A stretch of DNA of 50,933 nt from IMG/VR virus record IMGVR_UViG_3300045988_150450, positions 1 through 50,933 of that record. One strand, given 5' to 3'. Position 1 is the first letter of the stretch. Each line of letters starts with the position of its first letter. The position numbers were made by a program. The stretch is from a virus. This document shows, one piece after another, positions 27,001 through 30,000 of this stretch.

Positions 27001-30000
27001 TACTCCGAGAAGTAAAAAGTTCACTCTAAAAATCCGCAGGCGGGAGGCCGTAGAATCGCGGCCAGATCTTTGTAAAGCCCTTTCGCGGGTAAACGAAAAT
27101 AGGCGGGATCTTGTAAAAAATAGGCGAAAAATAGGCGGGATTTCCGTTTCTCCACTTGTAAATACCAAGGGTTTTACCTGCGCGGGTAAAAGAAAATAGG
27201 TAAAAAAGGCTTGGTATTTACAAGTGCGTCCTTGAACCTATTTTTATCTCCTTACTTTTATATATAATAATTTTTACTTTATTATATTAAAGTTTTATTT
27301 TTACTATATTTATATTCCTCTCGTATAATAAATAAAATAAAAATAGGTTCAAGGAGTCCTTTGTAAATCTTGGGACTTTTTTACCTATTTTTAATTACTC
27401 CCACGAGTAAAATGCCTGTAATCTTGTATGAAAATTTCGATTTTACGCCTATTTTTAACCTATTTTTACCCAAGATTCCGCCTATTTTTAATTACTCCGA
27501 AAGCCCTAATCTCGTTCGAAAACTTTATCTTATTAAAGTTTTTCTCTGATCGAGTAGGGGACCATAAAAATAGGTTCAAGAAGCCTTTGTAAAATGCCTT
27601 GTAATCCCAAGACTATTTTTAATTACTCCCACGAGTAAAACTGTTGTAAAATTCAAAGAGAGACCTGCAATTTCCGCCTATTTTTATACCTATTTTTAAG
27701 ATCTTGAACTTCAAGCAATTCCTTGATTCATATTGAACCTATTTTTAGGGATTATGTAAGAAAAATTTTGTAAATTTCTTTAATTTTGTGAATTTTCTCA
27801 GTTTTACTGTAAAATCTTTATTTTCTACCAACAGATACCCCCATTTTGCTGGAGTTTGCTTCACATTCCAGTACTTTTCACAACAAAACCGTGACTTTAC
27901 TTTTTCATTTCTAAGTAGTAGAATATGATTGTAAGGTAAATGAAGCTGATATTTCTTAGGAGGACATAAAAATGACTGGTGAAATCAGAACCACTTCCGT
28001 TGAAGGAACCGAGTACCATGTGTGGAGCGACTTTTGCGCTCGCTGCACTTACGCTGAGAACTCCGATGGAGTTAAGAAAATCATCAAGAGCAGTGGTTAC
28101 ATCCACAACGACCTGTCCGTGAGAAAAGCAATCGCTTGTGCATTTGGTCACAAGAGCTTCAGAAAGTGAGGATACAACAATGAAAAAGGTTTATGATGAT
28201 CAGTTCCGTATGCTTCCCAGCGAGATCAAGAAGGTTGAGCGCCTTGCTAACAAGCTGTCCGTCCGCACTGATGCCAAGGTTACTGCATACTCCTCTCGTC
28301 CGGATCCTTTGTCTGAAGACGTTGTCATCTGCAGCTGTGAGATCTGCTACAACTATGAAGACGTCGCTGATTTCTCTGTGAAGCTGTTCGCATTTCTGCC
28401 CGACCGTCGTAGAAGCTGGGCTCACTGATAGTCCAGCATACCTTAATTATAATAGGAGGATTCACCCATGTCCAACATTCGTTATCTCATCAAAGTAACT
28501 GCCACAGCCCAGCCCAACAATCCCACCTTTGCAGGAGCTGTTCTCACCTACTACTATGGCCGCAATCAGACTCTAGTGGGTATACACTCTGAAGGGATCA
28601 TGCCTCCTGAGGAGATGGAACTTTCTTCCTGGCTAGTCAAAGAATACGGATACAAGACTCGTAACACCAAGAGAGCAGAACAGTTTTGGTCTTCCGACGT
28701 CGATGACAGATACTTCATTGATCCGGATGGTTCTGATTTCTGGACTTACAAGACTGAGACCGTTTCCTATGATCTCGAAACCAATTCGTTGGTAAACAAC
28801 ATTGCTTAACAATTTTGAAAGGAGATACCCAAATGAGATACCCTAAAAACGCAATTCAAAAGATCCTGGAGCAGTTTCATGACAGCGAGCGTGATGTACT
28901 CAGAGTTCCCTATTCTGTTCCAGATCAGTACTCCACAAAAAACTCAGCTCAAGGTGTTTGGAGAACAGCAATCAAGACTTCTGGGTACAAGATGAAGTGC
29001 ATCACAATTGATAGCGTGCTGTACATTATCAAGCTGGATCCAGATCATCAGAAAACTGCTATCAAGTTGTGTTCAAACTGCATGTACAGCCTGGAGGATG
29101 GATTTTACAATCCTGATGGTTGGACTTGTAAGGACTGTGTAAAAGCTAGTAAATGGAGGGCAAAATAATGAAAGCATACAAATGTGATCGATGTGGTAGT
29201 CTGTATGAGAGCTATACTAAAATTGTGCTTGATGAGCGCCCCAAAGAGCATGTAACTTTCTCTGCAACCAGTCTGGTTCTGCGCAATTCAGATTTGATGC
29301 CTGTTGGATCCTATGATCTTTGTCCGAACTGTATGAGAAAAGTATTGACTATGCTGAGGGGGAACAAAGAATGAAAACACTGTCAATTGGATTGGGGAAC
29401 TTCGTGCAGGAGGCGAGAGTGATAGCAATTATATCACCCGAGTCTGCACCTGTAAAGCGCATGGTCAGAGACGCAAAAGACAAAGGTCTAGTAGTGGATT
29501 CTACCTATGGCAGACCTACAAGAGCGGTTATTGTAATGGACAACGGATCAATCGTGCTGTCAGCTATCCAGCCTGAGACCATCATAAACCGTAACAACAA
29601 GGAGGTGACAACGAATGAATGAACGTATGACTCCATGCTGCTCTGACAGAATAGATCTTGTAACTACAGTTAGATGCAAAGACTGTGTAAACTGGTCAGG
29701 CAAACAGACTGATAATGTGGGTGTATGCCGCAGCTTCTCAGCTGGCACAAAGGCTATGGACTTCTGCAGTCGTGGAAGACTACAGTCTAACAGAAAGGAA
29801 GATTAAGTTGGTTACTGCAAGAGTTTACCTCAAGACTGGTGGATACGTTGATGTTGAGGCTGATATTGTTAAATGTAAACGCAACAACGCTACTGGAGAA
29901 CTTGTGTCTTTTTCTTGTGAGGGAACTGCCACTGGACCTGAATCAAGTAGCAGCTGTGGTACAGGCTATGATAGAGGTGATGATGACTGTGACAAGGAAA

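What the first reader, a model, noticed from the sequence alone, without database searches (positions are those of the whole stretch)
27096..27745. Mirror-symmetric iteron field around a 13% G+C core: candidate replication origin and regulatory hub
Seen in the sequence:
- The 1.07-kb gap between the divergent arms has no credible ORF.
- It holds 14 copies of CCTATTTT, usually extended to (C/A)(G/C)CCTATTTTTA.
- The first four copies (27096-27200) are in reverse orientation. Seven of the eight copies from 27384 onward are forward; the exception is a reverse copy at 27567.
- One forward copy (27237) and one reverse copy (27340) lie inside a perfect 18-bp inverted repeat, 27229-27246 and 27338-27355.
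- That inverted repeat brackets a 91-bp core with 12 G/C by hand count. The core contains TTTTTACT direct repeats at 27271 and 27298.
- To the left is a nested cruciform-capable element, 27153-27226.
- To the right is a 28-bp exact repeat, 27385-27412 and 27613-27640.

Established: iterons flanking an AT-rich unwinding element define many phage and plasmid origins.

Inference: this is the origin and/or the main switch region. The iteron-binding protein is unidentified. Candidates are the RemA-like, Spo0A_C-like, DUF2786 and primase proteins.
Basis: partly seen in the sequence, partly recalled or inferred. Interest (0 to 1): 0.75.

Follow-up and report, generated by a model that had tools for sequence, protein, structure and literature searches.

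The report
Phage iteron field: likely replication origin
The only large non-coding gap of this uncultured ~51-kb phage holds about 15 copies of one short DNA word, arranged in mirror-image groups around a very AT-rich centre. Related phages keep the layout but swap the word, so it is a real protein-binding control region and most likely the replication origin, though that is not proven.

Summary
**Observation:** confirmed in every detail. All 14 CCTATTTT copies in the 50.9-kb window lie in 27096-27745.

**Setting:** the field fills the only large non-coding gap (1,067 nt). On one side is the packaging/structural arm (terS, terL, portal; minus strand). On the other is the early/replication arm (plus strand).

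**Conservation:** about 20 related metagenomic phages keep the same layout.
- The unit is word(-) ~45 word(+) ~65 word(+) 11-12 word(+) 22-50 word(+).
- It is usually tandem on the right and mirrored on the left in some genomes, around a 12-13% G+C core.
- The word itself changes by lineage: CGCCTATTTTT, CGCCTAATTT, CCGACTTTTTT or CCGATTTTT.
- A sister phage with a 94%-identical primase-helicase has replaced all its copies.

This points to a co-evolving array of protein-binding sites.

**Best reading (confidence about 0.5):** an iteron/AT-core replication origin set between the late and early promoters. It resembles SaPI origins, which are read by a homologous primase-helicase, and the lactococcal phage c2 origin, which also lies between divergent early and late modules.

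**Main rival:** a purely transcriptional switch.

**The reader protein is unresolved.**
- TerS, the Spo0A_C-like protein and the DUF2786 protein are disfavoured.
- The primase-helicase C-terminal domain and a RemA-like protein remain candidates. The RemA-like protein was found in every relative whose fetched DNA spans the field and the adjacent early genes.
- GC skew is uninformative.

The parts
26934..26962 (-). Sigma-A-type promoter of the terS/late operon: TTGACT, 17 nt, TATAAT (11 of 12 matches).
   Evidence: terS (26224-26904, minus strand) is identified. The sister phage has TTTACT-17-TATAAT at the same place (sequence read).
26927..26949 (.). Palindrome TAGATTTAT-N5-ATAAATCTA lying over the -10 box of the terS promoter. 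It looks like an operator.
   Evidence: Sequence. The sister (GAATTTAATTATAATTAAATTC) and L155 (TTAATTATACC..GGTATAATTAA) have a palindrome of different sequence at the same place.
26967..27015 (.). Two TTAC-N8-GTAA palindromes (26967-26982 and 27000-27015) immediately upstream of the terS -35 box.
   Evidence: This palindrome class occurs 24 times in 22.8 kb of gaps, against 2 times in 253 kb outside them.
27024..27063 (.). G+C-rich hairpins (CCGCAGGCGG and GGCC..GGCC). They resemble terminators and are conserved in the sister phage.
   Evidence: terminator-like site at 27046-27063; alignment.
27095..27245 (-). Left module, a mirror image of the right modules. Words lie at 27095-27104, 27116-27125, 27127-27136 and 27192-27201 (reverse) and at 27236-27245 (forward). 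Successive offsets are 21, 11, 65 and 45.
27153..27226 (.). Inverted repeat with 23-nt arms that contain CTTGTAAA. It encloses a TTAC-N8-GTAA palindrome (27174-27189) and one word.
   Evidence: DNA fold z = -6.1.
27229..27355 (.). Perfect 18-bp inverted repeat (27229-27246 / 27338-27355). Each arm carries one word, and the two arms bracket the AT-rich core.
   Evidence: A forward word and a reverse word 95-112 bp apart around an AT-rich core recur in most relatives.
27247..27337 (.). AT-rich core: 91 bp, 13% G+C. Candidate DNA-unwinding element. It also holds a rightward sigma-A-like promoter, TTTACT-18-TATAAT, at 27300-27329.
   Evidence: AT-rich blocks (TATATAA.. / ..TAATAA..) are aligned across six genomes.
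27339..27489 (+). Right module 1. Words lie at 27339-27348 (reverse) and at 27383-27392, 27447-27456, 27458-27467 and 27480-27489 (forward). A TTAC-N8-GTAA palindrome lies at 27395-27410.
27566..27746 (+). Right module 2, a tandem copy about 228 bp further on. Words lie at 27566-27575 (reverse), 27611-27620 (forward, one mismatch), and 27676-27685, 27688-27697 and 27737-27746 (forward). A palindrome lies at 27623-27638.
   Evidence: repeat families D1, D3 and D6, spacing 227-229.
27896..27940 (+). Early-promoter cassette CTTTACTTTT..TAGAATATGATTGTAAGGT in front of the first early gene (27972). The same cassette recurs at about 31478 and about 50848.
   Evidence: L155 has the same cassette.
29371..29622 (+). 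RemA-like gene, a candidate architectural binder of the T-run part of the words.
   Evidence: Pfam RemA-like, E = 6e-30. Matches the Geobacillus RemA structure 7BM2, E = 4e-25. Present in all 17 analysed relatives whose loci span the field and early genes. Absent from 65 distant relatives.
36956..38899 (+). D5-type primase-helicase with a C-terminal winged helix. It is the candidate initiator and reader of the words.
   Evidence: Pfam PriCT_1, D5_N, DUF5906 and RFX/Pox_D5. Matches PDB entry 7OLA over the helicase and C-terminal domain, E = 7e-11.

Best explanation
The field is the central cis-acting control region of the phage. It is most likely the replication origin, built into the divergent late/early promoter region.

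**Proposed mechanism**
- About 15 copies of a ~15-bp site (TTnnRCCTATTTTTA) are arranged as three ~150-bp modules. One is inverted on the left and two are direct on the right.
- The modules flank a 91-bp, 13% G+C core that is bracketed by two opposed sites.
- A phage-encoded protein, which co-evolves with the G/C-rich 'head' of the site, occupies the modules on both sides of the core and forms higher-order complexes.
- The core melts, and the D5-type primase-helicase loads in both directions. This is how SaPI Rep/PriRep proteins act at opposed iterons flanking an AT-rich stretch.
- The constant T-run of each site may be contacted or bent by the RemA-like ring protein.
- A promoter in the core fires rightward through ~560 nt of non-coding DNA to the next early promoter. 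It may help initiation, as the PE1 transcript does in lactococcal phage c2.

**Shown**
- The sites are real, confined to one locus and modular.
- The layout is conserved across about 20 genomes while the word is exchanged.
- Promoters flank the field.
- The primase-helicase is a sequence relative of the solved primase-helicase 7OLA, which I take to be SaPI5 PriRep5.

**Inferred**
- Origin function.
- Which protein reads the sites.
- DNA wrapping, and any role for transcription.
For: 1. **Strict single-locus enrichment.** 14 of 14 copies, 1.9 expected. Relaxed matches elsewhere are at chance level.
2. **Conserved grammar, changing word.** The unit is word(-) ~45 word(+) 64-66 word(+) 11-12 word(+) 22-50 word(+), usually tandem, and mirrored on the left in the window and some relatives (alignment).
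   - Words found: CGCCTATTTTT, CGCCTAATTT, CCGACTTTTTT, an intermediate CCGACTATTTT, and CCGATTTTT in the more distant L155.
   - The sister genome shares 94% of the primase-helicase and 90-98% of PolA, yet has 14 of 14 copies of the other word.
3. **Origin-like anatomy.** Opposed sites bracket the most AT-rich stretch of the genome. This meets the SaPI ori description: an AT-rich centre with at least two iterons on each side pointing in opposite directions, read by the winged helix of Rep/PriRep (PMC9371898).
   - The window's primase-helicase matches PDB entry 7OLA over the helicase and C-terminal domain, E = 7e-11.
4. **No rival locus.** It is the only large non-coding region.
5. **Position matches a tested precedent.** Experimentally confirmed c2-type origins lie between divergent early and late modules, are flanked by two early promoters, and have unrelated ori types among otherwise similar phages (PMC7150918). 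The window has a core promoter and a downstream cassette promoter.
6. **RemA-less distant relatives show the same design.** They carry a homologous primase-helicase and an analogous iteron/AT-core field at the junction of the replication and packaging modules.
   - At matched helicase-core identity, their C-terminal domain is less conserved between different-word pairs: 0.38 vs 0.47 and 0.45 vs 0.55.
7. **RemA-like link.** The protein is in all 17 analysed relatives whose loci span the field and early genes, and in none of 65 distant ones. All RemA-like-encoding genomes with a visible field have words of the 'G/C head + T-run' format; RemA-less relatives do not.
   - RemA is known to wrap DNA through periodic AT-rich repeats (PMC8481266).
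Against: - There is no direct evidence of replication initiation.
- GC skew is confounded and uninformative.
- The field is 9 kb from the primase-helicase gene. SaPI origins lie immediately downstream of rep.
- The primase-helicase recognition helix (KKHxFxRNxR) is nearly invariant across word classes. The only class-correlated residue is wing position 629: P, G, C or T, or deleted in one genome (L104), with the window's word; S with all other words. This is confounded by phylogeny.
- The RemA-like protein shows no class-specific residue. The apparent Ala-to-Ser correlation was refuted by L177 and L180.
- In the window the RemA-like protein has Pro in place of Arg51. R51A abolishes DNA binding in Geobacillus and Bacillus RemA (PMC8481266).
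- The AT-rich core contains good sigma-A-type promoter matches, so its composition could reflect promoters rather than an unwinding element.
- Site spacing is mostly not the regular 10-bp array reported for RemA.
Confidence: 0.5

Rival explanations
1. A purely transcriptional early/late switch. The words are operator or activator sites for a phage regulator, such as the RemA-like ring protein wrapping each module. The regulator controls the terS promoter, the core promoter and possible word-associated promoters. The origin lies elsewhere, for example inside a gene.
For: - Near-consensus promoters lie at both edges and inside the core.
- In six aligned genomes, a forward word sits at the -35 position of a conserved TATAAT-like block. 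A reverse word sits just downstream of a conserved -10-like block.
- Each 'word + TTAC-N8-GTAAAAT' composite places the word 17 bp upstream of a TAAAAT.
- RemA is a transcriptional activator that acts through arrays of AT-rich repeats upstream of promoters (PMC8481266). The phage homologue is encoded in the early operon of every analysed relative.
- From my own knowledge, not checked here: the phi29 early/late switch uses p4 sites containing T-tracts plus the DNA-wrapping protein p6.
Against: - The words occur at no other promoter of the genome, although three other regions share the early promoter cassette.
- The first early gene has its own promoter 150 bp beyond the last word.
- The words lie 170-270 bp upstream of the terS start site, further than known RemA sites.
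- RemA-less relatives keep an iteron/AT-core field in a genome whose genes all run one way, where no divergent switch is needed.
- The window's RemA-like protein lacks Arg51.
Confidence: 0.3
2. A packaging recognition site (pac) for the adjacent small terminase. TerS rings bind the repeated boxes on both sides of a central cleavage region. From my own knowledge, this is how pacL/pacC/pacR is described for SPP1.
For: - The field abuts terS in every relative.
- TerL is of the Terminase_3 type and the portal is SPP1-like. From my own knowledge, that combination is typical of headful (pac) packaging.
- Repeated boxes flanking a centre resemble a pac site.
Against: - Genomes with the identical word have TerS proteins only 45-55% identical, with different HTH recognition helices (PSLKRY, TTLKKY, STIKKF).
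- The sister phage, which uses a different word, has a nearly identical TerS HTH.
- Differences between the window's and the sister's TerS are spread evenly and are densest at the C-terminus.
- The field is much larger than known pac sites (about 650 bp, 15 sites).
- In L033 a regulator gene and a second ORF separate the field from terS.
Confidence: 0.07
3. The element acts mainly as RNA. Divergent non-coding transcripts start in the core, and each carries the words in the same sense together with hairpins. They could be a primer or regulatory RNA, or binding sites for an RNA-binding protein.
For: - The mirror orientation means that a leftward and a rightward transcript would both read CCUAUUUUU.
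- A core promoter faces right.
- The putative transcripts fold better than shuffles: z = -4.3 rightward and -3.3 leftward.
- The c2 origin depends on a non-coding PE1 transcript (PMC7150918).
Against: - Conserved reverse-oriented words occur inside each right-hand module. These would be antisense in the RNA.
- Complementarity between the paired words does not extend into the intervening sequence in the sister phage.
- The inner positions of the palindromes vary around one palindromic consensus, without clear compensatory changes.
- There is no Rfam match.
- The fold scores are expected anyway from the many inverted DNA repeats.
Confidence: 0.08

Closest known systems
SaPI replication origins read by Rep/PriRep self-loading helicases (PMC9371898)
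   Same: - Short iterons lie on both sides of a central AT-rich stretch, with opposed orientation on the two sides.
- The initiator there is an SF3 primase-helicase with a C-terminal winged helix. The window's primase-helicase has that domain architecture and matches the solved primase-helicase 7OLA, which I take to be SaPI5 PriRep5.
- Different elements use different iteron words, each matched to its own Rep.
   Different: - The sites are longer (about 15 bp against 5-6 bp) and more numerous (15 against 6-12).
- They are organised in ~150-bp modules together with additional palindromes.
- The field is 9 kb from the helicase gene, not directly downstream of it.
- The winged-helix recognition helix does not visibly change with the word.
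- A RemA-like protein accompanies the system.
Lactococcal Ceduovirus (c2-type) origins (PMC7150918)
   Same: - The origin lies in the non-coding region between divergent early and late gene modules.
- It is flanked by two early promoters and has no ORF or ribosome-binding site.
- Mutually unrelated ori types occur among otherwise conserved phages.
   Different: - c2 origins work without phage proteins and rely on a non-coding transcript.
- They are not described there as arrays of about 15 short oriented words around an AT core.
- There is no sequence similarity; the search of the phage collection gave no match.
RemA-dependent promoter regions of Bacillus subtilis (eps, tapA) (PMC8481266)
   Same: - A RemA homologue is present. 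By my count from the alignment, it is about 55% identical to the Geobacillus protein.
- There are multiple short T/A-rich repeats, some phased at 11-12 or 21-22 bp.
- An octameric ring that wraps about 100-160 bp fits the ~150-bp module size.
   Different: - Known RemA sites are weakly conserved 7-bp repeats in one orientation at a regular 10-bp period upstream of a single promoter.
- Here the sites are highly conserved, occur in both orientations and are unevenly spaced.
- They carry a lineage-specific G/C-rich head.
- The window's protein has Pro at Arg51.
Phage phi29 early/late switch region with p4 and p6 (own knowledge, not checked here)
   Same: - Divergent early and late promoters are controlled by multiple regulator sites containing T-tracts.
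- A DNA-wrapping protein takes part and also assists replication initiation.
   Different: - None of the window ORFs scanned matched a family annotated as p4 or p6.
- phi29 replicates from its protein-primed ends, not from an internal origin.
Satellite phage P4 ori/crr bound by the alpha primase-helicase (own knowledge, not checked here)
   Same: A fused primase-helicase with a C-terminal DNA-binding domain recognises repeated short words at a site distant from its own gene.
   Different: - P4 has two separate iteron clusters (ori and crr).
- It has no mirror-image modules around an AT core between divergent operons.

Membership tests
Iteron/AT-core origin read by a self-loading SF3 primase-helicase (SaPI type) | The initiator is an SF3 helicase (with or without a fused primase) carrying a C-terminal winged-helix domain. 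| tested here: met
   Pfam PriCT_1, D5_N, DUF5906 and RFX/Pox_D5 at residues 567-621. phmmer match to PDB entry 7OLA over residues 316-617, E = 7e-11.
Iteron/AT-core origin read by a self-loading SF3 primase-helicase (SaPI type) | An AT-rich region lies at the centre, with at least two iterons on each side pointing in opposite directions. | tested here: met
   The core is 91 bp at 13% G+C. Four reverse words and one forward word lie on its left; mainly forward words lie on its right. Opposed words bracket the core.
Iteron/AT-core origin read by a self-loading SF3 primase-helicase (SaPI type) | The origin lies immediately downstream of the rep gene. | tested here: not met
   The field (27.1-27.7 kb) is about 9 kb upstream of the primase-helicase gene (36956-38899). 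No comparable non-coding region adjoins that gene.
Iteron/AT-core origin read by a self-loading SF3 primase-helicase (SaPI type) | The initiator's C-terminal domain is matched to its cognate iteron, so the two co-vary. | tested here: inconclusive
   The recognition helix is invariant across word classes. Wing residue 629 separates the window's word class from the others, but this is confounded by phylogeny. In distant relatives the C-terminal domain diverges more when the words differ.
Iteron/AT-core origin read by a self-loading SF3 primase-helicase (SaPI type) | The region supports initiation of replication. | not testable with these tools
   This needs marker-frequency data or a plasmid ori assay.
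c2-type phage origin | A non-coding region between divergent early and late modules, flanked by the first two early promoters. | tested here: met
   The gap lies between terS (minus strand) and the early genes (plus strand). It holds a core promoter at 27300-27329 and a cassette promoter at 27896-27929, with no conserved ORF between them.
c2-type phage origin | Sequence similarity to the c2, bIL67 or 923 ori types. | tested here: not met
   blastn of 26000-29000 against 50,697 phage records found nothing.
RemA-controlled promoter region | A RemA homologue is available to bind. | tested here: met
   PF04025, E = 6e-30. Match to 7BM2, E = 4e-25.
RemA-controlled promoter region | An array of AT-rich direct repeats at about 10-bp periodicity upstream of the regulated promoter. 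| tested here: not met
   Only pairs lie at 11-12 or 21-22 bp. The other spacings are 45, 65 and 50 bp, and both orientations occur.
RemA-controlled promoter region | The DNA-contact arginines R50, R51 and R53 are conserved. | tested here: inconclusive
   The window and its sister have GRPTR, with Pro at position 51. Most relatives have GRRTR.
pac site bound by the small terminase | The site is adjacent to or inside terS. | tested here: met
   The field begins 191 bp from the terS start codon, and this adjacency is conserved in the relatives.
pac site bound by the small terminase | The TerS DNA-binding domain is matched to the repeated boxes. | tested here: not met
   The same word occurs with TerS proteins 45-55% identical whose HTH motifs differ. 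A different word occurs with a near-identical HTH in the sister phage.
pac site bound by the small terminase | The first packaging cut maps to this site. | not testable with these tools
   This needs virion DNA end mapping.

The most novel reading that the evidence does not exclude
The words may be two-part sites. A lineage-specific G/C-rich head would be the true iteron, read by the primase-helicase or by an unidentified early protein. The constant T-run would be gripped by a phage-encoded RemA-like ring.

Each ~150-bp, 4-5-site module would wrap around one RemA-like octamer. The wrapped complexes on both sides of the core would then strain the AT-rich centre open and also set early/late promoter activity.

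This would make a bacterial biofilm regulator fold into a viral origin/switch organiser. It would be working on DNA whose thymidines are probably hypermodified, because the genome carries a 5-hmdU kinase pathway.
Probability: 0.15. Interest if true: 0.75.

Novelty: new variant of a known kind. Interest (0 to 1): 0.5.

Why it matters
**Why the region is useful**
- It locates the likely origin and the master control region for a whole clade of uncultured ~50-kb phages. Their sequences come from metagenomes that I did not characterise further. From my own knowledge, their RemA-like and Spo0A_C-like genes point to Firmicutes hosts.
- These phages encode a thymidine-hypermodification pathway.
- About 20 genomes share one site grammar but use four or five different words. 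The sister pair is especially useful: primase-helicase 94% identical, all 14 sites exchanged.

**What would be new**
- No function for RemA-like proteins in phages was found. There is no PHROG family, no cultured phage with the gene, and no phage paper in the held library.
- A link between a RemA-like ring and an iteron field would be a new role for this fold.

**If it is only an ordinary iteron origin and promoter hub**
- It still gives a practical handle for building replicons.
- It also helps in reading the gene-expression programme of these phages.

Tried and rejected
1. **GC skew as origin evidence.** The minimum at about 27-29 kb coincides with the coding-strand switch. In ten relatives whose genes all run one way, skew is positive on both sides of their iteron field. 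Rejected as uninformative.
2. **DNA similarity to known phages.** No match. The closest deposited primase-helicase is 38% identical, from a rodent-gut metagenomic virus.
3. **Rfam.** Only two sub-threshold chance hits.
   - It is attractive because it is only 50% identical between the sisters.
   - It is absent from many genomes that carry the window's word.
   - It is only 29% identical between two genomes that share the CGAC word.
   - Rejected.
5. **DUF2786/DUF7168 protein.** 93% identical between sisters that use different words. Rejected as the specificity determinant.
Disfavoured.
7. **RemA-like Ala54-to-Ser as the determinant of the CGAC word.** It held in 3 of 3 such genomes. It was then refuted by L177 and L180, which have Ser but the window's word, and by L126.
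8. **Thymidine-modification enzymes.** The sister's TAGT-like enzyme groups with those of other CGAC-word genomes, but the enzyme is missing from several genomes with fields.
9. **Unbiased presence/similarity scan of all early ORFs across 17 genomes.** Only RemA-like is universal. The window's orphan ORFs have no homologues in other genomes with the same word.
10. **GenBank 'phage' records with RemA-like genes.** The eight records are unverified faecal contigs. The four larger ones I fetched have no phage core genes and no field. They are probably bacterial and tell us nothing.
11. **Hairpin versus dimer-site test on the TTAC-N8-GTAA palindromes.** Inner positions vary around one palindromic consensus. 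There is no convincing covariation.
12. **The original RemA footprinting paper (PMC3732408).** It is not held, so the exact RemA site consensus could not be compared.

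
Full report
**1.
- CCTATTTT occurs 14 times in the 50,933-bp window, and every copy lies in 27096-27745. About 1.9 copies are expected, and no shuffle reaches 14.
- Orientations are as reported.
- The 18-bp inverted repeat 27229-27246 / 27338-27355 is perfect. The enclosed core is 91 bp with 12 G/C. TTTTTACT occurs only at 27271 and 27298 in the whole window. The 28-bp repeat is exact.
- The left inverted repeat 27153-27226 is a strong hairpin former, z = -6.1.
- The gap 26905-27971 is the only large non-coding stretch. It holds the lowest-G+C 100-nt window, 12%.
- Three refinements:
  - A 15th, one-mismatch copy lies at 27611-27620.
  - The conserved site is about 15 bp, TTnnRCCTATTTTTA.
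  - Relaxed matches outside the field are at chance level.

**2. Context.**
- The window looks like a complete phage genome of about 51 kb.
- To the left of the gap, on the minus strand, lie a P22-gp3-type small terminase (26224-26904), a Terminase_3 large terminase and an SPP1-type portal.
- To the right, on the plus strand, lie small early genes, then a RemA-like protein (29371-29622), a Spo0A_C-like protein and a DUF2786/DUF7168 protein.
- Further right lie an HD hydrolase and a thymidine-hypermodification set: 5-hmdU DNA kinase, TAGT-like glycosyltransferase, dCMP deaminase, amino-acid:DNA transferase and a ThyA-like enzyme.
- Beyond these lie a D5-type primase-helicase with a C-terminal winged helix (36956-38899), PolA, a PD-(D/E)XK nuclease and an SNF2 helicase.
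- No close cultured relative exists.

**3. Relatives keep the architecture but change the word.**
- Scans of the viral and metagenome collections, anchored on five different proteins, gave about 20 related genomes.
- In each, one short word is concentrated in the gap next to terS.
- Word classes:
  - CGCCTATTTTT in the window and at least 12 other genomes.
  - CGCCTAATTT in two genomes.
  - CCGACTTTTTT in at least three genomes from two lineages.
  - An intermediate, CCGACTATTTT, in two genomes.
  - CCGATTTTT in the more distant L155.
- Aligned on the T-run, the classes differ at only 2-3 central positions: C[C/G]-xx-T5.
- The sister genome (contig 3300013426_000050) is the most telling. Its primase-helicase is 94% identical, PolA 90-98%, the DUF2786 protein 93%, the HD protein 92% and RemA-like 94%. 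Yet it has no copy of the window's word and 14 copies of CGACTTTT, all in the equivalent gap.
- The grammar is conserved whatever the word: word(-) ~45 word(+) 64-66 word(+) 11-12 word(+) 22-50 word(+).
  - It is usually tandem on the right.
  - In the window, the sister and some other genomes it is present again as a mirror image on the left.
  - Opposed words lie 95-112 bp apart around a 12-20% G+C core.
- This pattern is what an array of binding sites looks like when it co-evolves with a phage-encoded protein.

**4. Other elements in the gap.**
- A palindrome, TTAC-N8-GTAA (consensus TTACTCCnnGGAGTAA), is about 130-fold enriched in these gaps. It usually follows a word at a fixed distance. 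Two copies sit just upstream of the terS promoter.
- CTTGTAA is enriched genome-wide (28 observed, 8 expected) and clusters in all right-arm intergenic regions.
- terS has a near-consensus promoter, TTGACT-17-TATAAT. The promoter's -10 box lies in a palindrome whose sequence differs in the sister and in L155.
- The first early gene has its own promoter cassette (27896-27940). The cassette recurs at 31.5 and 50.85 kb.
- The core contains a rightward TTTACT-18-TATAAT promoter match.
- The word field therefore lies between outward-facing promoters and contains at least one promoter itself.

**5. Who reads the words? This is unresolved.**
- *TerS:* genomes with the same word have TerS proteins 45-55% identical, with different HTH helices. 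The sister, with another word, has an almost identical HTH. Disfavoured.
- *Spo0A_C-like:* absent from many field-bearing genomes. Rejected.
- *DUF2786 protein:* too conserved between the sisters.
- *RemA-like:*
  - It is the only early protein present in all 17 analysed genomes whose loci span the field and early genes.
  - It is absent from 65 more distant relatives.
  - It is present in L155, which has the same design with a fourth word.
  - No residue tracks the word. An apparent Ala54-to-Ser correlation was refuted by L177 and L180.
  - The window's copy has Pro at Arg51, a residue needed for DNA binding by RemA (PMC8481266).
- *Primase-helicase C-terminal domain:*
  - The recognition helix is invariant.
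  - Wing residue 629 is P, G, C or T (deleted in L104) with the window's word and S with all other words, but this is confounded by phylogeny.
- *A reasoned possibility:*
  - All RemA-like-encoding genomes with a visible field have 'G/C head + T-run' words. RemA-less relatives use words without T-runs: ATCTTGAACC, GTAACA-type and GTTACCAAC.
  - RemA binds weakly specific AT-rich repeats by wrapping (PMC8481266).
  - RemA-like may therefore contact the constant T-run, while another protein reads the variable head.

**6. Function.**

*Evidence for an origin*
- The anatomy meets the published definition of SaPI origins: an AT-rich centre with at least two iterons on each side in opposite orientation, read by the winged helix of a Rep/PriRep helicase (PMC9371898).
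- The window's primase-helicase is a sequence relative of the solved primase-helicase 7OLA/7OM0, which I take to be the SaPI5 PriRep5 of that paper.
- The position and promoter topology match experimentally verified c2-type origins. Those also come in unrelated types among similar phages (PMC7150918).
- There is no other candidate locus.
- RemA-less relatives with a homologous primase-helicase carry an analogous iteron/AT-core field at the junction of the replication and packaging modules, even though all their genes run one way. Their helicase C-terminal domain diverges more when the words differ. The pairs in that comparison are not independent, so this is modest support.

*Evidence against, or neutral*
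- There are no functional data.
- GC skew is uninformative.
- The field is 9 kb from the helicase gene.
- The core could simply be a promoter.

*Rivals*
- The main rival is a purely transcriptional switch. The two readings are not exclusive.
- A pac site and an RNA-level role are less likely.
- My estimates:
  - about 0.5 that the field contains the origin;
  - about 0.8 that it is the main early/late control region bound by a phage protein;
  - above 0.95 that it is a functional, selected array of sites.

**7. Novelty.** Iteron/AT-core origins and divergent control regions are known kinds of element. Four things are new here:
- The conserved mirror and tandem module grammar.
- The stepwise turnover of the word among close relatives.
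- The strict association with a phage RemA-like protein. That association has no PHROG family, no cultured example and no literature in the held library.
- The setting in a phage that probably hypermodifies its thymidines, which make up most of each site.

Noticed in passing
window 33959-36447, 45312-46289 and 47392-48186; L092 16-2447: The thymidine-hypermodification module is mosaic between the window and its sister. The 5-hmdU kinase is 52% identical and the TAGT-like enzyme 62%, and the amino-acid:DNA transferase has no sister homologue, while the replication proteins are 90-97% identical. The sister's TAGT-like enzyme is 74-75% identical to those of other CGAC-word genomes and 61-64% to those of CCTA-word genomes. 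A link between the modification chemistry and the T-run words was not tested.
   Followed up: partly
window 27896-27940, 31478-31520 and 50848-50890: A shared promoter cassette, CTTTACTTTT-N14-16-(G)TATGATAT-N-CTTGTAAGGT, precedes three right-arm transcription units. TTGTGA../TTGTAAA motifs lie upstream of it. The same cassette occurs in L155.
   Followed up: partly
window 26927-26949; L001 about 5955-5980; L155 about 4511-4535: The -10 box of the terS promoter lies inside an AT-rich palindrome whose arms differ between relatives. This may be a second co-evolving operator and repressor pair.
   Followed up: no
L033 10520-10860, and many of L027-L091 and L191-L241: More distant, RemA-less relatives have iterons such as GGTTCAAGATA in both orientations around a ~100-bp core of about 10% G+C. 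The field lies between the HD gene and a sigma-70-region-4-like late regulator that precedes terS. Word family correlates with the wing of the primase-helicase C-terminal domain, for example DKKINGKKYR with TTGAAC words.
   Followed up: partly
window 27229-27238, 27346-27355, 27573-27581 and 27732-27740: In the window, several words are preceded by (C)CTTGAACC. This is the iteron word of the distant relatives. The sister and other close relatives lack this flank. It could be coincidence or a composite site.
   Followed up: no
window 29371-29622 (residue 51 of the RemA-like protein): The window and its sister have GRPTR where RemA has GRRTR. Arg51 is required for DNA binding in Geobacillus and Bacillus RemA (PMC8481266).
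   Followed up: partly
L092 6076-7275 and 7495-8004: In the sister genome, PolA is split into two ORFs of 399 and 169 aa, separated by about 220 nt. This could be an insertion, an intron-like element or an assembly error.
   Followed up: no
window 31373-31382 (minus strand): A single near-word (GACTATTTTT, the 'intermediate' type) lies in the 31.4-kb intergenic region, next to CTTGTAA motifs and upstream of the second promoter cassette.
   Followed up: no
L009 640-1060: A relative with a 67%-identical primase-helicase, and no RemA-like gene in the fetched range, has about 10 copies of GTTACCAAC in a G+C-rich non-coding stretch. This is a quite different array format.
   Followed up: no
window 31433-31885 and 31918-32649 (minus-strand ORFs): These long antisense ORFs are shadows. 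The conserved genes are on the plus strand: 31553-31921 (122 aa) and 31936-32595 (DUF2786/DUF7168).
   Followed up: yes
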